This document shows, in pieces, positions 22,477 to 34,285 of a stretch of 64,000 bases of DNA. A model generated the notes under the pieces. That model made no database searches. It was not told the origin of the DNA and worked only from the letters and a program-made list of their open reading frames with translations. Source of the DNA: an uncultured bacterium (lineage in GTDB: Bacteria > JAHJDO01); contig CAYTGU010000005.1 in NCBI GenBank assembly GCA_964437505.1, forward strand, positions 15,645 to 79,644, given 5' to 3'. Within the stretch, counting starts at the first letter, position 1, and the number at the start of each line of letters is the position of its first letter. The position numbers and the translations under genes are program-made.

Positions 22477-23115
22477 CTATCTGCATAGGCTCATACTGTG
22501 AAGGTTTAGATATCTCCTGACTTTGTCTCCGATAGCTCCCTCTCTTATAATCGTGAGCGGGGAACTTGCAGCATTGACTATTGTTGATTCAATTCCCTCA
22601 GGTTTTGTTTCGTTGTCATCAACGAGAATGTCAACCTTGTTTTCAAACATATCGCTGAGTTTATTCAGAGATAATGATTGTTCATTATATCCTGAGATAT
22701 TAGCACTTGTTGTAGCAATAGGTACTCCTAATTCTTCTACAAGAAATCGCGGTATTGGATGATTTGGTATCCTGAAACTTACTGTATTGAATTTATCTGT
22801 TTTAAAGATGCACGCCTTGGATATTGGAATATTTTCTTTTGCTCTTAAGATAATTGTGAGTGGACCAGGCCAGAACTTGTTCATAAGCTTTCTTGCTATT
22901 GGCTGGATGTCATAAGCAATATCTCCTACTTGCTTTAAGTCTGAAATAAATAAAATTAAAGGTTTTCTACGGTCTCGGGTTTTTAGATCATAAATTTTAT
23001 CTATGGCATGTTCTATATTACATATGCATCCAATGCCATAAACAGTATCAGTTGGAAAGATTAGAATTTTACCTTTTCTTAAGACTTTAATCGCCGAGGA
23101 TCTGTTTACTTTCAT
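22477..23115 (-). CDS. tsaC: L-threonylcarbamoyladenylate synthase (YrdC/Sua5 family), involved in tRNA t6A formation.
   Basis: 212 aa with the ILIFPTDTVYGIGC YrdC signature. Confidence 0.85.
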   Translation of the reverse strand: MKVNRSSAIKVLRKGKILIFPTDTVYGIGCICNIEHAIDKIYDLKTRDRRKPLILFISDLKQVGDIAYDIQPIARKLMNKFWPGPLTIILRAKENIPISKACIFKTDKFNTVSFRIPNHPIPRFLVEELGVPIATTSANISGYNEQSLSLNKLSDMFENKVDILVDDNETKPEGIESTIVNAASSPLTIIREGAIGDKVRRYLNLHSMSLCR

Positions 23116-24175
23116 CTAGGAAGATTCCTTGCAGATTCATTTTTAACTCTTCAGGATTTGTTGCATTGGCCATAGCCTGTTCTCTGCTTACAAAGCCCTT
23201 TTTACATAATTCAACCAGAGACATATTGAATGTTTGCATACCATCTTCCATTCCACCTTGAATAGCAGATATTATCTTATTCAGCCTGTTTTCCCTTATC
23301 AGTCTGGAAACCATAGGGGTATTTATCAATATTTCCACTGCAGGTGTTACTCCACCCTGGTCCATTCGTGGTATAAGCCGTTGGCAAATAACAGCTTTAA
23401 GATTAAGAGAAAGTTGCATTCTGATCTGATGATGTTGAGACGGAGGGAAAAAATCAAGTATTCTGCTAAACACTCCTGATGTGTCAGTTGAATGAAGTGT
23501 TGTAAAGACAGTATGCCCTGTTTCTGAAGCACCTAGAGCAATATGAAAACTTTCAATATCTCTCATTTCGCCTATTAGGATAACATCCGGATCCTGGCGC
23601 ATGGCATGGCGCAGGGCAATAGAGTATGAAGATGTATCTATATGTACTTCTCTCTGATTTACAATGCTTTTTTTGTCTTTATGGAGAAACTCAATAGGAT
23701 CTTCAACGGTTATAATATGGCGATTTAATTTCTCGTTTATATAATTTATCATAGACGCGACAGTTGTCGATTTTCCACAGCTTGTTGTGCCGGAAACAAT
23801 AACTAACCCTCTGTTTGACAGTGATATTTTTTCTAATGCAGAAGGCAAATTTAACTCTTCAAATGATCCTATATCTGTTCTTACCCTTCTCAAAACTAGT
23901 CCAATCGTTCCCCTCTGATAGAAAATATTAACCCTGAAACGTCCTAGATTCTCAAGTCCGTATGAAATATCCATTTCAAACTCTTTATCAAATTTTTGCT
24001 TTTGTTGCTCATTCATTAACTCAAGGGCGATTTCTCTGGTATCTTTTGAAGAAAGTATTTCACCATATGAACATAACTCTCCATTTATTCTAATTTTAGC
24101 AGAGCTCCCTGCTTTTAGATGTAAATCCGTGCCATTTCTTTGAACTAGTTCTTTAAGATATTCTTTTGTATTCAT
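23087..24175 (-). CDS. pilT: Type IV pilus retraction ATPase PilT (twitching motility).
   Basis: 362 aa with a Walker A motif (GTTSCGKSTT), ITVEDPIEF, and His/Asp boxes of PilT/PilU secretion ATPases. Confidence 0.85.
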   Translation of the reverse strand: MNTKEYLKELVQRNGTDLHLKAGSSAKIRINGELCSYGEILSSKDTREIALELMNEQQKQKFDKEFEMDISYGLENLGRFRVNIFYQRGTIGLVLRRVRTDIGSFEELNLPSALEKISLSNRGLVIVSGTTSCGKSTTVASMINYINEKLNRHIITVEDPIEFLHKDKKSIVNQREVHIDTSSYSIALRHAMRQDPDVILIGEMRDIESFHIALGASETGHTVFTTLHSTDTSGVFSRILDFFPPSQHHQIRMQLSLNLKAVICQRLIPRMDQGGVTPAVEILINTPMVSRLIRENRLNKIISAIQGGMEDGMQTFNMSLVELCKKGFVSREQAMANATNPEELKMNLQGIFLDESKQILGD

Positions 24176-24191
24176 TTTTCCTCTTCTTCTA

Positions 24192-25301
24192 TTATTTTTT
24201 ACTTCTCAAAAATGTTGGAATGTCCAGATTGCTGTCACCACCCAGCTCTCTGTTTACTTTTTCCAGCATAACCCGATCCTTTATCATAGTTTCTTTCCCG
24301 TGAACTCCCAATGCCTTTGAAACGAATTTTACTTCCTTTTTCTCCAAAGATGGAATATCAGTAGCAATAATTGTAAGTTTCAGCATATTGTTTAGTCTTT
24401 TATCTATAATAGCTCCGAATACTATATTAGCGCTATGTATTACTGCTTTACGAACATTATCAATAATCTTTTCAACTTCTCCAAACCTGAGATCTTCACC
24501 TCCTGTTATATTGACAAGCATTGTTTTTGCACCTTTGATATCAATCCCTTCTATGAGTGGACATAGAAGAGCATTTTTAACAACAGAGGATATTCTGTCT
24601 TCACCATATGCAGTTCCCACTGCTAAGGTAGCTTCTTTGCCATGGGTTATTACCTGCTGAATGTCCGATATATCAAGATTTATTATTCCTGGAGCAGCTA
24701 CAAGGTCAGAGATTGCGCTAATAGCGTCGAATAAAGTGTCATTTGTAAATTCAAATGCTTTTGAGAAAGAAGAGTCTTTGTCAATGGTTCCAAAAAGTTT
24801 CTGGTTTGGTATGGAGATTATTGCGTTGGATTTTTCTTTTATTGCTCTTAGTCCATCTTTGGCCTGCATACATCTTTTTTTTCCTTCAAATAGAAAAGGG
24901 CTTGTAACTATTGCTATTGTTAACGCCCCTAGTTCCCTTGCAATTTCACAGATTAGTGGGGTTGCTCCTGTGCCTGTTCCGCCACCAAGTCCGCAGGTCA
25001 CAAACACGATGTCTGAGTTTTTTAATGCTTCGGCAATTTCTGCTCTGCTTTCATTCAGGCTTCGACGTCCTAAGTCTATATCAGAACCCGTTCCAATTCC
25101 TCTCGTTGTCTGCAGACCAATCTGAATTTTATGGGGAACAATAGATGTCCTAAGAGCCTGAATATCTGTGTTAATGTTAATACATTCTACTCCGGAGAGG
25201 CCTTTTTTGTATATTGCATCTACAGAATTATTACCACCTCCACCAACTCCAACTACCTTGATACTTGCGCCTACTTTGGTCTCTTCAACTATCTCAAACA
25301 T
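24192..25301 (-). CDS. ftsZ: Cell division GTPase FtsZ.
   Basis: Contains IKVVGVGGGGNN and the GGGTGTG tubulin signature. An AAAGGAG RBS precedes it. Confidence 0.95.
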   Translation of the reverse strand: MFEIVEETKVGASIKVVGVGGGGNNSVDAIYKKGLSGVECININTDIQALRTSIVPHKIQIGLQTTRGIGTGSDIDLGRRSLNESRAEIAEALKNSDIVFVTCGLGGGTGTGATPLICEIARELGALTIAIVTSPFLFEGKKRCMQAKDGLRAIKEKSNAIISIPNQKLFGTIDKDSSFSKAFEFTNDTLFDAISAISDLVAAPGIINLDISDIQQVITHGKEATLAVGTAYGEDRISSVVKNALLCPLIEGIDIKGAKTMLVNITGGEDLRFGEVEKIIDNVRKAVIHSANIVFGAIIDKRLNNMLKLTIIATDIPSLEKKEVKFVSKALGVHGKETMIKDRVMLEKVNRELGGDSNLDIPTFLRSKK

Positions 25302-25320
25302 TAGTTATATTCCGCTCCTT

Positions 25321-25554
25321 TTAGATTGCTTTCCCTAATCGCTCTGCCAGCCATACCTTGATAACAGATTGACGAGGCACCCCTAGACGCTTTGCTTCCT
25401 TATCCAATGAGTGAATCATCCAAATAGGGAAGTCCACATTAACCCTTTTCTGGTCTTGCTCAAGCCTTCTCGCCTTTGTAAGATCTAGATACTTAGAAAC
25501 GTTATTCCCTTCATCAAACTTTTTATCAAACTCTCTAGCTTTCATATATTTCAA
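25321..25554 (-). CDS. brnA: BrnA-family antitoxin (CopG/RHH-like), the antitoxin half of a BrnT/BrnA type II TA pair.
   Basis: 77 aa, overlapping the upstream toxin gene. The sequence ...LDKEAKRLGVPRQSVIKVWLAERL is a typical BrnA C-terminus. Confidence 0.7.
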   Translation of the reverse strand: MKYMKAREFDKKFDEGNNVSKYLDLTKARRLEQDQKRVNVDFPIWMIHSLDKEAKRLGVPRQSVIKVWLAERLGKAI

Positions 25555-25795
25555 CCTCCTCTTTTCGGGATTGTCTTACTGAAATAATTCTTATCTTTTC
25601 GCCGCGATAGGTAACAACTCCTGACCAATGCTTTCCAGAAATCATACCAATTACCAAATATCTTGGTTCATCACTGGTTCTTGCCGGAATTTCAATTAAG
25701 TCAGTATCCTCCCATAATAACTGCGCTTCAATAAAGTCAATACCATGTTTATTCTTATTGATTTCGCTTTTCTTAAGGTCAAACTCAAACTCCAT
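25535..25795 (-). CDS. brnT: BrnT-family toxin (DUF497/COG2929 ribonuclease toxin). The ORF is open to 25825, but the likely start is MEFEFD at 25795.
   Basis: MEFEFDLKKSEINKNKHGIDFIEA...YLVIG...VVTYR matches the BrnT N-terminal pattern (MKFEWD..K...N..KHG). Confidence 0.7.
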   Translation of the reverse strand: MEFEFDLKKSEINKNKHGIDFIEAQLLWEDTDLIEIPARTSDEPRYLVIGMISGKHWSGVVTYRGEKIRIISVRQSRKEEVEIYES

Positions 25796-25952
25796 AATAT
25801 AATTTATATACCAAAAAGATACCAATTGTCAACAAAAAAATCTCTTTTTCGTCATTGTAGAAACGTAGCGACGCTGCAATCTGTCATTCTTTTCGACGCA
25901 ACCGCTTGCTTTAGCTGGCGGTTATCTGGGCAGTCCCATTTGCTTTGTTGTG

Positions 25953-26531
25953 TTATTCTTTGATTTGATTGGGGAAGCCAGACGTTTGTTTCTTCAAGAC
26001 AATGGTGTATTCGATATGATCTTTAAATGGAATGACAAACAGCATCAGCCCTTTTTCCTCAAAGGTGGAGGATATGGTCAGGTTCCCTTCAGAATCTTTA
26101 GACATTACGCTAGTCCGGGATTTCTTTGCGATGCCAGGGAAAATGGCTAGACCAACAGTGGAGGGACTATCTGCCACATAATACAAGCAGCCCTGATTCC
26201 AGTTGAACGTCTTGGGTTGAAACACGAGCTCCTTGGTTTGAATTACTCCATTTGACCAATAGTAAACTATGGTCATCATTCGGTCTGACTCTTGCTGGAT
26301 TACTACTTCTGAATTATTTGAGATACTAGTAGCGCTAACAAAGGGATTGCCCGTCCTGAAGTATCCACTACAGTTAGATTTGAGAAAAATGTATGTCCCC
26401 GAGAAATCAGCGTGTTTGTTGTCGTACGTCTGACCTCTACCACTAGGCACAAACAATACGACACACCAGACAAGGCACCATAAAACAAATATCCCAAGAC
26501 CCCATAGACATCTATGTTTTTTTTGCATCAT
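25953..26531 (-). CDS. Hypothetical secreted or membrane-anchored protein (192 aa), with an N-terminal hydrophobic signal/anchor.
   Basis: MMQKKHRCLWGLGIFVLWCLVWCVVLFV is followed by a beta-rich domain. GC content is visibly higher than in its neighbours. No family was recognised. Confidence 0.5.
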   Translation of the reverse strand: MMQKKHRCLWGLGIFVLWCLVWCVVLFVPSGRGQTYDNKHADFSGTYIFLKSNCSGYFRTGNPFVSATSISNNSEVVIQQESDRMMTIVYYWSNGVIQTKELVFQPKTFNWNQGCLYYVADSPSTVGLAIFPGIAKKSRTSVMSKDSEGNLTISSTFEEKGLMLFVIPFKDHIEYTIVLKKQTSGFPNQIKE

Positions 26532-26557
26532 AACATTACTCCCTGCTTAATTTTCCC

Positions 26558-27772
26558 TCAGAAAAAATCTCCAAATATCTTCTTTACGCTTCCTGTCATT
26601 CTACCCATAAGGTTTTTATTTTCAAATCTTGACGTTCCTCCAAATTTTCTGAAGTAAGAACCATGTTGTAATAGGCCGACACATGTTGAATAACTTGGCT
26701 TGCCAGAGATATCTTCAAGCTGGTATGCAAGATTTGGGATGCCCATTCTTGTTGGCAGATTAAATGTATCTCTTACGGTTGAAGTCATTCCTTTAAGCAA
26801 AGAGCCGCCACCTGTGAGAACTACTCCAGAGGCAATTAGATTTACAAAGTCCGCTCTTTCTATCTCTTCCTTTACAATTCGGATGGTTTCTGTAATCCTG
26901 GGTTGAACAATCTCCGAAAGCTGATATGGGGAGAAATGATTAGAATTCTCCTGATTATTAGTATTGGTTTCCATATCTAACCCAGCGCCGTATTTTTTCT
27001 TTATTTTCTCTGCTTCAGGTGTGGAGATATGAAGGCCTATAGTTATGTCATTTGTTATATGATTACCGCCTACTGGTAGTACCTGAGAATATTTCAACTC
27101 ATCTTTTTCAAAAATAACAAAATTTGTTGTACCTGCTCCCATTTCAATCAATACAACGCCAAGCTCTTTTTCACTCTGTGATAGTACCGATTCAGAAGAG
27201 GCCAATAGATTAAATACAATATCTTCTATCTGAAATCCAGCCTGATTAACACTTTTTATGAAATTCTGTGTATGTGTTACCATGCCAGTAACAATATGTG
27301 TCATTATTTCAAGTTTCACACCATTCATGCCGATTGGATCCTTAATCTCTGTCTGGCCATCTACAATGAAGTCTTGAGGCAGAACTTGGATAATTTCCCT
27401 TCCTTCCGGCAAGGCAATTGCTTTGGCTGTTTCTATCACGTTTCGAGTATCTTCAACTGTGATCTCTCTGTCTTCTCTTCTAACTGGAACACTTCCTTTG
27501 CTGTTAACTGTATTAATATGTCCGCCTCCTATTCCCATGAATACAGATTTGATTTCTAGTTCAGATGTCTTTTCTGCCTCTCTAAGAGCTTCTTTAATAT
27601 CATTGGTTACAACATCTATATTAACAATAAGTCCTTTTTTTAGGCCTCTGGTAGGAACTATTCCCATTCCTATAATTTCTATACTATCCTCTTTGTCCAA
27701 TTTGCCAACCATAGCGCATATTTTAGAGGTTCCTATATCCAGTGCTGTTACAATGTCTTTCCGAGTTCGCAT
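26558..27772 (-). CDS. ftsA: Cell division protein FtsA.
   Basis: 404 aa actin-like ATPase with VTALDIGTSKICAMVG and DIGGGTT-like phosphate motifs. Confidence 0.92.
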   Translation of the reverse strand: MRTRKDIVTALDIGTSKICAMVGKLDKEDSIEIIGMGIVPTRGLKKGLIVNIDVVTNDIKEALREAEKTSELEIKSVFMGIGGGHINTVNSKGSVPVRREDREITVEDTRNVIETAKAIALPEGREIIQVLPQDFIVDGQTEIKDPIGMNGVKLEIMTHIVTGMVTHTQNFIKSVNQAGFQIEDIVFNLLASSESVLSQSEKELGVVLIEMGAGTTNFVIFEKDELKYSQVLPVGGNHITNDITIGLHISTPEAEKIKKKYGAGLDMETNTNNQENSNHFSPYQLSEIVQPRITETIRIVKEEIERADFVNLIASGVVLTGGGSLLKGMTSTVRDTFNLPTRMGIPNLAYQLEDISGKPSYSTCVGLLQHGSYFRKFGGTSRFENKNLMGRMTGSVKKIFGDFF

Positions 27773-27776
27773 AAGG

Positions 27777-28604
27777 TTACTTTCTGTATTTTACAGGAAT
27801 AGCATTTAAATCTTCTCCAAAACGTAGATCTATATAGAGAAGTTTTTTCTTTTGAGTTTGTCCAAGTCTGCTTAGAAGATTCTCTAATATTACGAGCTTT
27901 TCTTCAAAGCCAGTTTTGCCCATTCTTATTTTTATTTCATTGTCTTGGCATATAAAATCGAGAATCAGGGCTTTAGATCTTTTAACATTTATGTTTTTTA
28001 ACCTGCCAAATTCAGCAAGTCTTCCCACATTATAGGTTTTTATAATTGTAATAATCTTTTTTATTAATTCAGACACTTCGGGGTTTTTTATTTTCAATCC
28101 TATTATTTCAGGTAAACCTCTTGATCCATTAAGCTTAATAATTACCCCATCCTCATCTATCCCATATATATTGTGGTCGCATGAGATCTGTCCAATAGGA
28201 ATTCTCTCTTTTATATTTACTAAAATTATATTCGGAAATGAGCGCTCAATAACGACAGACTTTACATCTGGTAGGGCTTCGTAGCGTGATCTCAACCTGT
28301 TGATATCAAGAGCAAAAATATTCTCACCTTTTATATCATTAATTTCTTTTAAAATAACCACATTATCAAGAAATTTATTATTATTTACAATAACATTATT
28401 AATACAGAAGTAATTTGAATGAATAATGAATTCTTTAAATCTTAATACTATGAAAAAAGCGGCGTATATGATTAACAGTAGACCTATTATTTTGCTTATT
28501 CGTAAGGCTCTTTTTTTAATCAGCATTTTATGTGGATGCGGCGCGGCAGAGACTCTAGGTGCTATTTTAACATTCCTGCGAAGTTTTGTTTTTCTACTTT
28601 TCAT
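27777..28604 (-). CDS. ftsQ: Cell division protein FtsQ/DivIB (POTRA domain).
   Basis: 275 aa with an N-terminal TM segment, then POTRA plus the FtsQ beta domain. It lies between ddl and ftsA. Confidence 0.75.
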   Translation of the reverse strand: MKSRKTKLRRNVKIAPRVSAAPHPHKMLIKKRALRISKIIGLLLIIYAAFFIVLRFKEFIIHSNYFCINNVIVNNNKFLDNVVILKEINDIKGENIFALDINRLRSRYEALPDVKSVVIERSFPNIILVNIKERIPIGQISCDHNIYGIDEDGVIIKLNGSRGLPEIIGLKIKNPEVSELIKKIITIIKTYNVGRLAEFGRLKNINVKRSKALILDFICQDNEIKIRMGKTGFEEKLVILENLLSRLGQTQKKKLLYIDLRFGEDLNAIPVKYRK

Positions 28605-29505
28605 TTTTCCTGATTGCCAGATCCAGTAATCTCAAGCAGAGTTCCATGAAACTTATTCCAGCAGCCTGTGCAGCTTTTGGCAGCAAACTGGTTTCTGTAA
28701 GTCCTGGAATTGTATTAATCTCCAGAACATAGGGATTGAGTTTGCTGTCAAGTTTCATATCCGCTCTTGACATTCCAGAGCATCCAAGCACTTTATGGGC
28801 ATTGAGAGCTATCTGTTTTATCTGGGCGTTTTTCTCCTCTTGAAGCTTTGCAGGCACAACAAAATCCGTGGATTCTTTCTTGTATTTTGCATTAAAATCA
28901 TAAAATCCGGACTTTGGAATAATTTCAATTACCGGCAAAGCTTTCTCCTCTAAGATGCCGACAGTTATTTCTTTCCCGTCTATATATTTTTCACATATTA
29001 TATTATCATCATAACAAAAGGCAGTCTCAAGAGCTTTCTTAAATTCATCTTCTTTTCTTACAATAGATATCCCGATTGTTGAACCCTCAGTAGACGGCTT
29101 AACAACTATAGGAAAGTTCTCCAAAGGATTAATATGACATTTGCCTTTGCTCACTACTCTAAACTCTGGAGTCGGAATTCCAGCAATCTGAAACAAACGC
29201 TTGGAAGCGATTTTATCCATAGAGAGAGCGCTTGCAAGAACTCCGGAACCTGTATATGGGATGTTTAATATATCAAGCATTCCCTGTATTGTTCCATCCT
29301 CTCCGGGCTTTCCATGAAGAGCAATAAATACCAGATCTATTTTCTCTTTTATCAGCCTGTCAGGTAACTCTCTATTAACATCAAAAGCAGTAACATTCAG
29401 CTGAGCTTCTTTAAGAGCCTTTAGCACACAATTCCCACTTTTAAGAGATATTTCTCTCTCTGAAGAAGGTCCTCCCATTAAAATAGCAATACGCCTATTT
29501 TTCAT
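28594..29505 (-). CDS. ddl: D-alanine--D-alanine ligase.
   Basis: 303 aa ATP-grasp fold with HGKPGEDGTIQG and the C-terminal E..N..PG motif. Confidence 0.9.
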   Translation of the reverse strand: MKNRRIAILMGGPSSEREISLKSGNCVLKALKEAQLNVTAFDVNRELPDRLIKEKIDLVFIALHGKPGEDGTIQGMLDILNIPYTGSGVLASALSMDKIASKRLFQIAGIPTPEFRVVSKGKCHINPLENFPIVVKPSTEGSTIGISIVRKEDEFKKALETAFCYDDNIICEKYIDGKEITVGILEEKALPVIEIIPKSGFYDFNAKYKKESTDFVVPAKLQEEKNAQIKQIALNAHKVLGCSGMSRADMKLDSKLNPYVLEINTIPGLTETSLLPKAAQAAGISFMELCLRLLDLAIRKNEK

Positions 29506-30440
29506 ATCCCTATTATTTTAATTTCTTCCTCTAATTTTACACCAGTTTTTTCAAAAACTATTAATTTAATTTTTTTAATAAGTTTGAGCACATCCTGAGC
29601 GTTTGCATTGCCACTATTAATAATAAAATTGGCATGTTTCTCTGAGACCTGCGCATCTCCAACAGCAAGCCCTTTTAACCCAGCTTCGTCAATTAATCTG
29701 CCGGCAGAATGTCCATTCTGATTTTTAAATATACACCCTGCGCTTGGTATGTCAAGAACCTGTGTGGACTTTTTGTGCTCCAAAAGCTGGGATATTCGTC
29801 CATTGATTTCTTTTTCTTTTCTGCACTCTAATTTTAGCTTTACCTCAAGTATTATGTATTCGGATAGGTTAGACTTGCGATATTCAAAATGCAGGCCATC
29901 TTTTTTAAGTTCAGATACATTGCCCTTCATATCAATTACTTTTACTGATTCAACAAAATCCCCAATTGACACATGCTCTATGTTTCGGATTTCGGATTTC
30001 GGATTTCGGATTTTTTTCGTCCCTGCATTCATGCTCACTGCGCCGCCAACAGTTCCTGGGATACCTGCTGCAAACTCAAGTCCTGCAAGAGCTTCTCTTG
30101 CCGCTTGTTTTAAGACTCTTGAGAGCAAAGCACCAGTTCCGCATATAATAGATTCTCCTTTTATTTTGATACCACATAACCCATGTTCCAAATTTAACAC
30201 AACACCTCTTATCCCTTTATCACTGATCAATACGTTCGTTCCCTTGCCAATGGTTGTAACGGGAATGTTGTAACTATTACAGAACATGAGAGTGTTTTTG
30301 ATATCTGAAATATCTTTCGGATATATCCAAACATCTGCAGAGCCTCCAATTCTAAAGGAGGTATGCTTGGCTAAGAGTTCATTAAACCTGATCTCTCCTC
30401 TTATCAAATTACGGAACTCTTTAGCTAATTCTTTATTCAT
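29502..30440 (-). CDS. murB: UDP-N-acetylenolpyruvoylglucosamine reductase.
   Basis: 312 aa FAD-binding fold (GGSADVW..., GTVGGAVSMNAG). It carries an internal heptamer repeat; see the repeat feature at 29983-30010. Confidence 0.88.
   Translation of the reverse strand: MNKELAKEFRNLIRGEIRFNELLAKHTSFRIGGSADVWIYPKDISDIKNTLMFCNSYNIPVTTIGKGTNVLISDKGIRGVVLNLEHGLCGIKIKGESIICGTGALLSRVLKQAAREALAGLEFAAGIPGTVGGAVSMNAGTKKIRNPKSEIRNIEHVSIGDFVESVKVIDMKGNVSELKKDGLHFEYRKSNLSEYIILEVKLKLECRKEKEINGRISQLLEHKKSTQVLDIPSAGCIFKNQNGHSAGRLIDEAGLKGLAVGDAQVSEKHANFIINSGNANAQDVLKLIKKIKLIVFEKTGVKLEEEIKIIGI
29983..30010. repeat. Perfect tandem heptamer (TTTCGGA)x4, immediately followed by T7, inside the murB coding sequence.
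   Basis: Read directly: tgTTTCGGATTTCGGATTTCGGATTTCGGAttttttt. On the coding strand it encodes KKIRNPKSEIRN. Confidence 0.95.
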
Positions 30441-33590: not shown

Positions 33591-33920
33591 TCAAGAAATC
33601 TCTATGCCGAATTTTCTAATCTCAATAATAAGCGGAGAATCATGATTTCTGTATTCTTGCAGAGAAACAGGAATTGGTTCAATACGAGTATCTATCCTGC
33701 GGGTTTTTTTTAAAAGAAATTGAAGTTCGTCTGTGGTGTCCTTCCCGAATTTAGAAGAAATAATGCAAAGGTCAATGTCGCTTTCTTTTTTTGCTTTCCC
33801 TCTGGCATAGGAACCAAAAAGAATTAATTTCTCAACAGGCGTACCTTCTTCCTCTAAGAGATTTCTAAACCTTAAAGCGATATTTTGTATGTTTTTTCTT
33901 ATAGTTTTCTTTTTAGCCAT
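33591..33920 (-). CDS. Nucleotidyltransferase (MNT-type), the antitoxin partner of the HEPN toxin.
   Basis: 109 aa with the GSYARG...DIDL minimal nucleotidyltransferase motif. It overlaps the HEPN gene. Confidence 0.8.
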   Translation of the reverse strand: MAKKKTIRKNIQNIALRFRNLLEEEGTPVEKLILFGSYARGKAKKESDIDLCIISSKFGKDTTDELQFLLKKTRRIDTRIEPIPVSLQEYRNHDSPLIIEIRKFGIEIS

Positions 33921-34285
33921 AGATATATGTCCTTCGCTCTCTTAAAATATCCTTCCGTATATTCTTTAGTTGCTTTTTTGAAAAATTTGCGTTTATAGTC
34001 ATTATACCTTGCCTCAATGTTAAAACTGGTTATTTCAGCCAAAAGATCTAATTGTTCTTCAGAAAATTCGATACCACTTAATTCTGACAATCTTACTAAA
34101 TTATGTACATAAGGAGCTTGCTGTTTTGTTTTCTTGACCACCAATGATTTAATAATCTTCTCAAGAAATAAATGACAAAAGAAAAGACAATGATGATATC
34201 TCTTTGAGATGAAAAGACTTTTAGCGGTTTTAAGGTCATCTTCAGCCCCTTCAAACCAGTAATTAATCATCTCGCTAATTTTCAT
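33899..34285 (-). CDS. HEPN-domain protein, the toxin of a HEPN/MNT type II or VII TA module.
   Basis: 128 aa helical protein with the typical HEPN layout and an E..RY-like C-terminal region (NIEARYNDY). It is co-oriented with, and overlaps, the MNT gene. Confidence 0.75.
   Translation of the reverse strand: MKISEMINYWFEGAEDDLKTAKSLFISKRYHHCLFFCHLFLEKIIKSLVVKKTKQQAPYVHNLVRLSELSGIEFSEEQLDLLAEITSFNIEARYNDYKRKFFKKATKEYTEGYFKRAKDIYLWLKRKL

What the first reader, a model, noticed from the sequence alone, without database searches (positions are those of the whole stretch)
25302..26557. Foreign-looking 1.2-kb insertion splitting ftsA from ftsZ, carrying a BrnT/BrnA toxin-antitoxin pair and a secreted hypothetical protein
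ftsA and ftsZ are normally adjacent and co-transcribed. Here they are separated by about 1.25 kb containing a 192-aa signal-anchored hypothetical protein, a BrnT toxin and a BrnA antitoxin, all on the same strand as the division genes. The inserted DNA looks clearly GC-richer than the flanks by eye (roughly low-to-mid 40s % versus about one-third). The brnA stop lies only 19 nt from the ftsZ RBS and start, so ftsZ transcription would have to come through, or originate inside, an autoregulated TA operon. A TA module wedged into the core division operon could couple toxin activity or antitoxin autoregulation to FtsZ levels.
Basis: partly seen in the sequence, partly recalled or inferred. Interest (0 to 1): 0.72.

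Follow-up and report, generated by a model that had tools for sequence, protein, structure and literature searches.

The report
Toxin-antitoxin cassette between ftsA and ftsZ
In an uncultured bacterium the two core division genes ftsA and ftsZ are split by a patchwork of acquired DNA, including a working-looking BrnT/BrnA toxin-antitoxin cassette with its own promoter, and related species show this junction is a recurrent insertion and deletion hotspot.

Summary
On the minus strand ftsA (26558-27772) and ftsZ (24192-25301) are 1256 nt apart. The gap holds a 192-aa ORFan, brnT and brnA. The brnA stop is 19 nt from the ftsZ ATG.

The gap is a mosaic, not one insertion:
- an 11-nt junction remnant;
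- a promoterless copy of a lineage-restricted gene whose homology covers only its coding sequence;
- a 56-nt hairpin element;
- a 536-bp BrnTA cassette with a conserved promoter and operator;
- a 19-nt spacer whose last 17 nt are the tail of a deleted 263-274-aa gene (orf274), now supplying the ftsZ ribosome-binding site.

Twelve related species-level lineages show at least eight junction states. Four are empty, with ftsA TAA overlapping the ftsZ ATG. The others carry orf274, TIR-like, DUF4258, DUF5677-like or GC-rich foreign genes.

The same cassette, with sharp ends, sits in four other genomic contexts, once in a genome whose ftsA|ftsZ junction is empty. It is under purifying selection (dN/dS 0.08-0.37).

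No terminator-like site is predicted between the cassette promoter and ftsZ, so read-through into ftsZ is structurally plausible but untested. The GC contrast is weaker than stated (40.1% against 36.8%), though third-position GC is clearly deviant for the ORFan and brnA.

Verdict: a known TA family in an unusual, hypervariable place. Moderate interest.

The parts
26558..27772 (-). ftsA, the left conserved flank. Its stop codon is TGA. In empty-site relatives the stop is TAA and overlaps the ftsZ ATG.
   Evidence: TIGR01174 383 bits. Junction sequences compared.
26598..26625 (-). Promoter-like site inside the ftsA 3' end (TTGAAA-16-TAGAAT, 10 of 12 matches). It is a candidate ancestral promoter proximal to ftsZ and would now read into orf192. 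L008 and L010 keep a 10/12 site (TTGAAA-16-TAAAAT).
   Evidence: Consensus scan only. Overall the scan found no more sites than chance. Sequence checked.
26532..26557 (-). Left junction. GGGAAAATTAA (26547-26557) is shared 10 of 11 with the sequence that follows ftsA in L027, L029 and L034. The next 15 nt carry the orf192 ribosome-binding site (AGGGAG).
25953..26531 (-). orf192, a lineage-restricted ORFan with an N-terminal hydrophobic helix. Positions 25981-26530 are 90.7% identical in nucleotides to a gene in L013, which lies in a cluster with a secretin. The homology covers only the coding sequence. The last 8 codons and the stop come from local DNA.
   Evidence: Only 2 homologs among 5.8 billion proteins. 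L013 context. blastn boundaries. dN/dS 0.32. GC3 z 5.5. AF2 model pLDDT 39, helix 9-27.
25897..25952 (-). 56-nt element with a hairpin, AACCGC(C)-N10-(A)GCGGTT. It also lies upstream of the brnTA cassette in L020-L024. Its 27-nt core lies downstream of the cassette in L014-L016. There is one copy in the window. Function unknown.
   Evidence: Alignment A2. Pattern searches. RNA fold. No Rfam match.
25857..25896 (-). 40-nt spacer. It contains GAATGACAGA, also found about 40 nt upstream of the cassette in L026. This may be a trace of a shared insertion history.
   Evidence: Alignment A3. Sequence check.
25321..25856 (-). BrnTA cassette, 536 bp. Homology to the copies in four other genomic contexts starts at AATGAC and ends at the brnA stop codon.
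   Evidence: Alignments A2 and A3. Contexts.
25803..25832 (-). Cassette promoter and putative BrnA operator. -35 TTGACA at 25827-25832; -10 TATATA or TATAAA at 25803-25810, preceded by TG. Direct repeats TTGGTAT lie at 25819-25825 and 25808-25814, 11 nt start to start.
   Evidence: Nearly invariant across the lineage copies, while synonymous divergence is about 0.3. TTGAC and two GGTAT half-sites are kept even in the Thermoguttaceae and Babeliales copies. Coordinates.
25535..25795 (-). brnT, the toxin gene (86 aa).
   Evidence: PF04365 4.8e-24. Matches solved toxin 7vd7_A at 2e-5. dN/dS 0.08-0.37.
25321..25545 (-). brnA, a ribbon-helix-helix antitoxin gene (74 aa). It overlaps brnT by 11 nt and has the RBS GAGGAGG.
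   Evidence: NF047399 3.1e-36; PF12441 2e-7. dN/dS 0.08-0.25.
25302..25320 (-). 19-nt spacer AAGGAGCGGAATATAACTA. Its last 17 nt equal the 3' end of orf274 in L029 (...GGAGCGGAATATAACTA|ATG). It is the remnant of a deleted gene and carries the ftsZ Shine-Dalgarno sequence.
   Evidence: junction comparison of the window with L009, L026 and L029..
24192..25301 (-). ftsZ, the right conserved flank.
   Evidence: TIGR00065 328.6 bits.

Best explanation
The ftsA|ftsZ junction of this deep-branching uncultured lineage is an insertion and deletion hotspot. The window shows one of its occupancy states.

What fills the 1256-nt gap (shown):
- a promoterless copy of a lineage-specific secreted or membrane protein gene (orf192), with homology limited to its coding sequence;
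- a small hairpin element;
- a self-contained 536-bp BrnT/BrnA type II toxin-antitoxin cassette;
- a 19-nt spacer whose last 17 nt are the 3' end of an older resident gene (orf274). This remnant now supplies the ftsZ ribosome-binding site.

How it most likely works (inferred):
- BrnT is an RNase-type toxin neutralised by the ribbon-helix-helix antitoxin BrnA. This follows from what is known of the family.
- BrnA, alone or with BrnT, represses the cassette promoter through the two TTGGTAT repeats that overlap the promoter spacer and -10.
- No terminator-like site is predicted between ddl and the pilT-like gene on the coding strand. ftsZ should therefore be transcribed by read-through from upstream dcw promoters and from the cassette promoter.
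- ftsZ translation starts from its own Shine-Dalgarno sequence. The TAATG overlap with ftsA seen in empty-site relatives is lost.
- The cassette persists mainly as a selfish addiction module. Essential genes on both sides leave little room for imprecise deletion.
- Cargo probably turns over by homologous recombination in the conserved flanks and by microhomology deletion.
For: Anatomy and identities.

Accessory nature and hotspot:
- Empty junctions reading TTCTAATG, or TTTTAATG in L010, occur in L008, L010, L025 and L030.
- Other cargo: orf274 in L009; orf262 plus orf274 in L029; a GC-rich reverse gene plus brnTA plus orf274 in L026 (same species as L011 and L028); a TIR-like gene in L027; three genes including DUF4258 in L033; a reverse gene in L031.
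- These states interleave on the ftsA tree, whose two main clades have 100% bootstrap support.

orf274 remnant: 17 of 17 nt identical to the L029 orf274 3' end, at the same distance from the ftsZ ATG.

Cassette as a unit:
- Sharp homology boundaries across five contexts.
- One copy lies between a methyltransferase gene and mnmE in MAG GCA_030611945.1. That genome's ftsA|ftsZ junction is empty.

Cassette function: dN/dS 0.08-0.37. The promoter and operator show 1-8 mismatches per 50 nt while dS is about 0.3, and the operator motif is conserved across phyla.

Read-through: no terminator-like site on the minus strand in 24000-29600.

Foreign composition of orf192 and brnA.

orf192 origin: 90.7% nucleotide identity to a gene in a different locus, with homology confined to the coding sequence.
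Against: - There are no expression data. Promoter-like matches in the region are no more frequent than in shuffled sequence (19 found, 17.4 expected). The cassette promoter rests on conservation, not on mapping.
- The terminator scan is a simple consensus scan. It could miss Rho-dependent or unusual terminators.
- The direction of change is inferred from a distance tree of one gene and from junction sequences. An insertion with a short target duplication could produce similar junctions.
- No mobility machinery is found: no transposase, integrase, terminal repeats or target-site duplication. How the cassette relocates with such sharp ends is unexplained.
- Toxin activity and neutralisation were not tested.
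- brnT composition is host-like. The cassette is therefore not recent here.
Confidence: 0.7

Rival explanations
1. Co-opted promoter. The BrnTA cassette has become the main promoter unit of ftsZ. It may have been selected to restore ftsZ expression after earlier cargo brought terminators into the gap. FtsZ synthesis would then be governed by BrnA/BrnT autoregulation and rise whenever the antitoxin is degraded.
For: - In L026 ftsA is followed by a GC-rich hairpin with a T-rich tail and then a reverse-oriented gene. The cassette promoter is therefore the nearest co-directional promoter upstream of orf274 and ftsZ.
- L027, L029, L031 and L033 also have terminator-like hairpins right after ftsA.
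- In the window, 19 nt with no terminator-like site separate brnA from ftsZ.
- The cassette faces the same way as the next gene in all five contexts.
Against: - In the window there is no terminator-like site between ftsA and the cassette. A conserved promoter-like site lies in the ftsA 3' end, so upstream transcription can reach ftsZ without the cassette.
- A repressed TA promoter is usually weak.
- In the serC and HTH_17 contexts the downstream genes appear to have promoter-like sequences of their own, as read from alignment A2.
- Relatives with cargo but no cassette (L009, L029) still have to express ftsZ.
- There are no expression data.
Confidence: 0.15
2. Integrated lineage-specific division genes. 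orf192, and orf274 in relatives, would be genuine divisome or envelope proteins belonging to the dcw operon. The TA pair would be incidental.
For: - orf274 lies directly upstream of ftsZ in three species from both clades, and a remnant is present in the window.
- Both proteins have N-terminal signal or anchor segments.
- orf192 shows purifying selection (dN/dS 0.32).
Against: - orf192 is found at this site in the window species only. Its one homolog lies in a different locus.
- orf192 and orf274 are unrelated.
- Four relatives have nothing between ftsA and ftsZ, and the window has deleted orf274. Neither gene is therefore needed for division.
- orf192 has the most deviant codon usage in the window.
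Confidence: 0.07
3. Defence-island-like hotspot. The junction collects anti-phage or abortive-infection cargo, and BrnTA is present as a defence module. It would not be a selfish element or a regulator of ftsZ.
For: - Cargo in relatives includes a TIR-like protein (PF13676, 1.5e-5, 25.9 bits, below the 28-bit cut-off), a DUF5677-like protein (0.0056) and a DUF4258 protein (2e-7).
- TA modules are often found in defence islands (general knowledge).
Against: - PADLOC models give no meaningful hit for any cargo protein, nor for BrnT or BrnA.
- The TIR and DUF5677 matches fall below the Pfam cut-offs.
- Several cargo genes are secreted proteins or of unknown function.
- No anti-phage role has been tested here.
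Confidence: 0.08

Closest known systems
BrnT/BrnA type II toxin-antitoxin system (PF04365/DUF497 toxin with a CopG-like ribbon-helix-helix antitoxin; first described in Brucella abortus)
   Same: - Both proteins exceed the curated family cut-offs.
- The toxin gene comes first and the two genes overlap.
- The proteins are small, 86 and 74 aa.
- A conserved promoter with repeated half-sites fits antitoxin autoregulation.
- Plasmid-borne homologs are annotated as BrnT family toxin and CopG family regulator.
   Different: - The location is unusual: inside the dcw cluster, 19 nt upstream of ftsZ, with no predicted terminator in between.
- The module behaves as a 536-bp unit with sharp ends, found in five chromosomal contexts in one lineage.
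- No activity data exist for this subfamily. The match to the one solved relative found (7vd7_A) is distant, E 2e-5.
Chromosomal integration hotspots between conserved core genes, that is, variable accessory cargo between syntenic flanks (general concept from comparative genomics)
   Same: Conserved flanks (ftsA, ftsZ) and at least eight alternative cargo states in 12 close lineages. These include empty sites, cargo of deviant composition, TA modules and defence-like genes.
   Different: - The flanks are an essential, normally co-transcribed gene pair. In empty-site relatives they are even overlapping.
- No tRNA, integrase or other mobile-element machinery is nearby.
- Each cargo state alters the transcriptional and translational linkage of ftsZ.
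Integron gene cassettes, which often carry TA modules
   Same: Units whose boundaries coincide with the coding sequence (orf192, brnTA) are separated by a short hairpin element. That element appears either upstream or downstream of the TA unit in different contexts.
   Different: - The hairpin is only about 27-30 nt and does not fit the attC consensus (R'' RYYYAAC, R' GTTRRRY).
- No integrase gene appears in the gene lists of the window-identical locus or the related loci.
- The TA unit has its own promoter.
- The hairpin occurs once in 64 kb.
ftsZ promoters embedded in upstream dcw genes, for example the -140 start inside ftsA in Bacillus mycoides (PMC3762067)
   Same: A promoter-like site lies inside the ftsA 3' end (L008 and L010 keep a 10/12 site). 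ftsZ depends on transcription that starts in or passes through upstream genes.
   Different: Here 1.26 kb of accessory DNA, including an autoregulated operon, lies between that site and ftsZ.

Membership tests
BrnT/BrnA type II toxin-antitoxin | Toxin with the BrnT (DUF497, PF04365) domain | tested here: met
   PF04365, 84.9 bits against a cut-off of 34.5, full-length match 1-77 of 77. Matches solved toxin 7vd7_A at E 2e-5.
BrnT/BrnA type II toxin-antitoxin | Adjacent BrnA or CopG-type ribbon-helix-helix antitoxin | tested here: met
   NCBIfam NF047399 BrnA equivalog, 123.4 bits against a cut-off of 60. PF12441, 32.1 bits against a cut-off of 28.
BrnT/BrnA type II toxin-antitoxin | Bicistronic operon with the toxin gene first and coupled, overlapping genes | tested here: met
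   The brnA ATG (25545) lies 11 nt inside brnT (stop at 25535-25537), preceded by GAGGAGG. All related copies have the same architecture.
BrnT/BrnA type II toxin-antitoxin | Autoregulated promoter bound by the antitoxin or the complex | tested here: inconclusive
   TTGACA-16-TATATA with two TTGGTAT repeats 11 nt apart. It is nearly invariant within the lineage, and TTGAC plus the GGTAT half-sites are kept across phyla. Binding and repression cannot be tested here.
BrnT/BrnA type II toxin-antitoxin | Toxin arrests growth (RNase activity) and the antitoxin neutralises it | not testable with these tools
   Indirect support only: purifying selection on both genes (dN/dS 0.08-0.37).
Integron gene cassette | attC recombination site (R''/L''-L'/R' with GTTRRRY) at the 3' end of the cassette, and an intI integrase nearby | tested here: not met
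   The hairpin AACCGCC-N10-GGCGGTT is about 27 nt. Its flanks (AGATAAC, GTTGCGT) do not fit the consensus, as read. No integrase appears among the called genes of L001 or the related loci. The window outside this region was not screened for intI.
Insertion sequence or transposon | Transposase gene, terminal inverted repeats, target-site duplication | tested here: not met
   No transposase lies in the gap. No terminal inverted repeats or convincing flanking direct repeats were found. The cassette flanks differ in all five contexts and share no target motif.
Chromosomal integration hotspot (variable region between conserved core genes) | Conserved syntenic flanks with different accessory content in close relatives, including empty sites | tested here: met
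   At least eight states in 12 lineages. Four empty sites interleave with filled ones on the ftsA tree.
dcw-cluster core gene (for orf192) | Conserved presence and position in related genomes | tested here: not met
   orf192 is present at this site only in the window species. Its single other homolog lies in a different locus.
Known anti-phage defence systems (PADLOC) | Match to a PADLOC-DB protein model | tested here: not met
   No hit for BrnT, BrnA, orf192, orf274, orf262 or rev268. The TIR-like protein gave only a spurious weak hit.

The most novel reading that the evidence does not exclude
In this lineage ftsZ has been cut off from ftsA by repeated cargo insertions, several of which bring terminators. 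The BrnTA cassette would then have been recruited as a portable promoter for ftsZ. FtsZ supply would be set by antitoxin-controlled autoregulation. Stress that degrades BrnA would release an RNase toxin and derepress ftsZ at the same time. The addiction module would also lock the accessory DNA into the most conserved gene pair of the division cluster.
Probability: 0.15. Interest if true: 0.75.

Novelty: new member of a known kind. Interest (0 to 1): 0.45.

Why it matters
ftsA-ftsZ is among the most conserved gene adjacencies in bacteria, and the pair is usually expressed as a unit. This lineage shows that the junction can tolerate repeated gain, swap and loss of accessory genes. Each state rewires how ftsZ is transcribed and translated: overlapping stop and start codons, a borrowed ribosome-binding site, terminators after ftsA, or a TA promoter directly upstream.

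If the TA promoter contributes materially to ftsZ expression, this would be a natural case of a selfish module wired into cell-division control. Even if it does not, the locus offers two things. It is a compact natural series for studying how essential operons absorb insertions. It is also an example of a 536-bp TA cassette that relocates with precise ends and no recognisable mobility genes.

Tried and rejected
- Structure of orf192. A single-sequence AF2 model had mean pLDDT 39.3, and only the N-terminal helix was confident. It was too poor for a fold search, so none was run. With only two homologs, no useful alignment was possible.
- Family searches. Pfam, NCBIfam and PADLOC found nothing for orf192, orf274 or rev268.
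- RNA families. Rfam found nothing in the gap, even at E up to 1.
- Mobile-element vehicles. The phage collection had no match. Plasmid BrnTA homologs reach only 65-69% nucleotide identity, so no vehicle was identified.
- Integron reading of the hairpin. Rejected: too short, no attC consensus, single copy.
- Transposon reading. Rejected: no transposase, terminal repeats or target duplication.
- REP/RAYT lead.
  - GTAGGG...GGCTT.CC hairpins follow ftsA in several relatives.
  - An IS200-like Y1 transposase gene lies between murB and ddl in L031.
  - The window has none of these hairpins, so they do not explain the window's state.
- Homology between orf192 and the 274-aa gene of L009. None found.
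- Recent transfer of brnTA between the window and L026 lineages. Synonymous divergence of the cassette is 0.31, against 0.42-0.63 for ddl, ftsQ and ftsA. This is suggestive only, because the cassette has few sites.
- Taxonomy. Source records say only 'MAG: bacterium'. The nearest named FtsA proteins are about 45% identical (Geobacterales, NC10), so the phylum remains unassigned.
Full report
**1. What is in the sequence**

All genes of the region lie on the minus strand, in this order:
- ddl 28594-29505
- ftsQ 27777-28604
- ftsA 26558-27772
- a 192-aa ORF 25953-26531 (orf192)
- brnT 25535-25795
- brnA 25321-25545
- ftsZ 24192-25301
- a pilT-like ATPase gene 23087-24175

Profile searches confirm the identities:
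- FtsA: TIGR01174, 383 bits.
- FtsZ: TIGR00065, 329 bits.
- BrnT: PF04365, 84.9 bits against a cut-off of 34.5, full-length match.
- BrnA: NCBIfam equivalog NF047399, 123.4 bits against a cut-off of 60, and PF12441, 32.1 bits against 28.

Other features of the gap:
- brnA starts 11 nt inside brnT, behind a GAGGAGG site.
- The brnA stop is exactly 19 nt from the ftsZ ATG.
- orf192 matches no family in Pfam, NCBIfam or PADLOC.
- Only the N-terminal hydrophobic helix of orf192 (residues 9-27) is modelled with confidence.
- The same gene order recurs in independent ENA, JGI and Logan assemblies, so it is not a chimera.

**2. Composition**

- The insert is 40.1% GC against 36.8% for the window, the 95th percentile of equal-sized windows. 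The flanking ftsA and ftsZ are 37.7% and 38.5%.
- Third-position GC separates the parts better. The 53 host ORFs average 0.297 (sd 0.032, maximum 0.386). orf192 is 0.472, brnA 0.413 and brnT 0.333.
- Codon adaptation gives z -5.9 for orf192, -4.2 for brnA and -0.2 for brnT.
- orf192 and brnA therefore look foreign. brnT looks host-like.

**3. Relatives: the junction is a hotspot**

Relatives came from four sources: a scan of one genome per species with FtsA, a metagenome scan with the back-translated FtsA C-terminus, an FtsA protein search, and look-ups of the FtsA relatives it found. Together they gave 12 species-level lineages with 83-95% FtsA identity. Beyond these, the nearest named FtsA proteins are only about 45% identical (Geobacterales, NC10). 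The lineage is therefore deep and unclassified.

| State of the ftsA-ftsZ junction | Loci |
|---|---|
| Empty; ftsA TAA overlaps the ftsZ ATG (TAATG) | L008, L010, L025, L030 |
| One 263-274-aa secreted protein gene (orf274) | L009 |
| Terminator hairpin, 262-aa DUF5677-like gene, orf274 | L029 |
| GC-rich hairpin, about 1.1 kb of roughly 55-60% GC DNA (by eye) with a reverse 268-aa gene, brnTA, orf274 | L026 (same species as L011 and L028) |
| Terminator hairpin, TIR-like 250-aa gene (PF13676, 1.5e-5, below cut-off) | L027 |
| Hairpin, 254-aa gene, 155-aa gene, DUF4258 gene | L033 |
| Hairpin, then a reverse gene | L031, L032 |
| orf192, hairpin element, brnTA, orf274 remnant | window |

One further contig, L034, ends 11 nt after ftsA.

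On an ftsA neighbour-joining tree the two main clades have 100% bootstrap support. Empty and filled states interleave within them.

**4. The gap is a mosaic, and one event was a deletion**

- **Spacer next to ftsZ.** The 19-nt spacer reads AAGGAGCGGAATATAACTA. Its last 17 nt are identical to the 3' end of orf274 in L029 (...GGAGCGGAATATAA CTA ATG), at the same distance from the ftsZ start. L009 and L026 have close variants there.
- **What that implies.** The window lineage once carried orf274 upstream of ftsZ and lost it. The remnant kept the Shine-Dalgarno sequence that ftsZ now uses.
- **orf274 is probably ancestral.** It occurs in both clades.
- **Left edge.** The 11 nt after the ftsA stop (GGGAAAATTAA) match the post-ftsA sequence of L027, L029 and L034 at 10 of 11 positions.
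- **Empty sites.** The empty junction TTCTAATG is what a deletion between the left CT(G/A)A and the right CTAATG would leave. L010 has its own variant, TTTTAATG. I therefore infer at least two independent deletions. The opposite polarity is not excluded.

**5. orf192**

- Among about 5.8 billion proteins it has one other homolog, P0002, 87% identical.
- That gene sits in a different locus (L013), among unknown genes and a secretin gene.
- Nucleotide identity is 90.7% over window 25981-26530. This span runs from the start codon to the point where the L013 gene stops. There is no flanking homology. The window ORF then reads on for eight more codons.
- dN/dS is 0.32.
- orf192 is unrelated to orf274.
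- It is thus a captured, promoterless gene copy. It is not a conserved division gene.

**6. The BrnTA cassette**

BrnT proteins 90-95% identical to the window's occur in four other contexts:
- between a methyltransferase gene and mnmE (L014-L016);
- after a 935-aa gene and before HTH_17 and patatin genes (L018, L019);
- upstream of serC and serA (L020-L024);
- in the L026 junction.

L014 belongs to MAG GCA_030611945.1. That is the same genome as L010, whose ftsA|ftsZ junction is empty.

Properties of the unit:
- **Boundaries.** Homology begins sharply at AATGAC, 61 nt upstream of the brnT ATG, and ends at the brnA stop. The unit is 536 bp, window 25321-25856.
- **Promoter.** The leader carries TTGACA, a 16-nt spacer, then TATATA preceded by TG. 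Two TTGGTAT repeats lie 11 nt apart, overlapping the spacer and the -10.
- **Conservation.** The leader shows 1-8 mismatches per 50 nt between copies whose synonymous divergence is about 0.3. TTGAC and the two GGTAT half-sites persist in copies from Thermoguttaceae and Babeliales MAGs.
- **Selection.** Both genes are under purifying selection, dN/dS 0.08-0.37.
- **Age.** Between the window and L026, cassette dS is 0.31, against 0.63 for ftsA, 0.42 for ddl and 0.48 for ftsQ. This weakly suggests later exchange.
- **Mobility.** No transposase, integrase, terminal repeats or target duplication accompany the unit.
- **Hairpin element.** A 56-nt element with a hairpin (25897-25952) lies upstream of the cassette in the window and in L020-L024. 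Its 27-nt core lies downstream in L014-L016. It does not fit an integron attC site. Its role is unknown.

**7. Consequences for ftsZ**

Shown:
- The overlapping stop and start codons seen in empty-site relatives are gone.
- ftsZ has its own Shine-Dalgarno sequence, from the orf274 remnant.
- No terminator-like site is predicted on the coding strand anywhere in 24000-29600.
- A promoter-like site lies in the ftsA 3' end at 26598-26625. L008 and L010 keep a 10/12 site.

Inferred:
- ftsZ mRNA arises by read-through from upstream dcw promoters and from the cassette promoter.
- The share contributed by each is unknown.
- In several relatives terminator-like hairpins follow ftsA. In L026 the cassette promoter is the nearest co-directional promoter upstream of orf274 and ftsZ. 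The co-opted-promoter idea therefore stays open, at perhaps 15% probability.
- Promoters for ftsZ inside upstream genes are normal in other bacteria, for example the -140 start inside ftsA of Bacillus mycoides (PMC3762067).

**8. Comparison with what is known**

- The TA pair is a regular member of the BrnT/BrnA family. Plasmid homologs in Catenovulum, Vibrio and Aliivibrio are annotated the same way.
- Variable cargo between conserved flanks is a familiar pattern.
- The place is what is unusual.
- Full-text searches found no report of a TA module or a cargo hotspot between ftsA and ftsZ. The paper library is incomplete.

**9. Verdict**

The DNA is accessory and BrnTA is genuine. It is, however, a multi-event mosaic that includes a deletion remnant, at a lineage-wide hotspot. 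Coupling to FtsZ level is untested.
- Novelty: a new member of a known kind, in an unusual location.
- Interest: moderate, 0.45.

Noticed in passing
window 33591-34285 (minus strand): A second toxin-antitoxin-like pair lies between the surA-like gene and the RNase R-like gene, just upstream of the dcw genes. It consists of a HEPN gene (128 aa) and a nucleotidyltransferase/MNT gene (109 aa). In relative L034 the SurA-like and RNB genes abut, with no such pair.
   Followed up: partly
L009 9221-10036; L026 12295-13104; L029 4039-4830: orf274 is a 263-274-aa protein with a signal peptide and conserved Cys and His motifs (HYAHTSHGGQ, SMWSWCCQQ). It has no Pfam or PADLOC match. It sits directly upstream of ftsZ in three species from both clades. 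It may be an ancestral lineage-specific gene of the division cluster.
   Followed up: partly
L031 3445-3999 and 6980-6997; L026 10270-10287; L033 4309-4326; L014 4924-4941: REP-like GC-rich hairpins beginning with GTAGGG (GTAGGGGCGGGGCTTGCCTCCGCCC) follow ftsA in several relatives. An IS200-like Y1 transposase gene (PF01797, 6.7e-7) is inserted between murB and ddl in L031, and two such hairpins lie inside its ORF. None occur in the 64-kb window.
   Followed up: partly
L027 1168-1920; L033 6165-6395; L029 5078-5866: Cargo at the same junction in relatives includes three candidates for defence or toxin functions. They are a TIR-like protein (PF13676, 1.5e-5, just below cut-off), a DUF4258 protein (2e-7) and a DUF5677-like protein (0.0056).
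   Followed up: partly
L013 5673-5821: A second, partial copy of the last 149 nt of the orf192-like gene lies 1.5 kb downstream of the full copy in L013. It is 94% identical to the window in nucleotides. This coding segment is therefore itself repeated in its native locus.
   Followed up: no
window 23087-24175; L010 4290-4910: A pilT-like ATPase gene directly follows ftsZ in the window and most relatives. It is absent in L010, where the Sua5/YrdC-family gene follows ftsZ. The downstream side of ftsZ is therefore also variable.
   Followed up: no
L035 2501-4052 (Thermoguttaceae MAG context): In a planctomycete MAG the homologous brnTA lies in a small TA cluster. It is followed by an unknown 123-aa gene, a second BrnA-like gene and a hicAB pair.
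   Followed up: no
whole window: The organism is a deep, unclassified lineage. Beyond a tight group at 83-95% FtsA identity, the nearest named FtsA proteins are only about 45% identical (Geobacterales, NC10). Source records are titled only 'MAG: bacterium'.
   Followed up: partly
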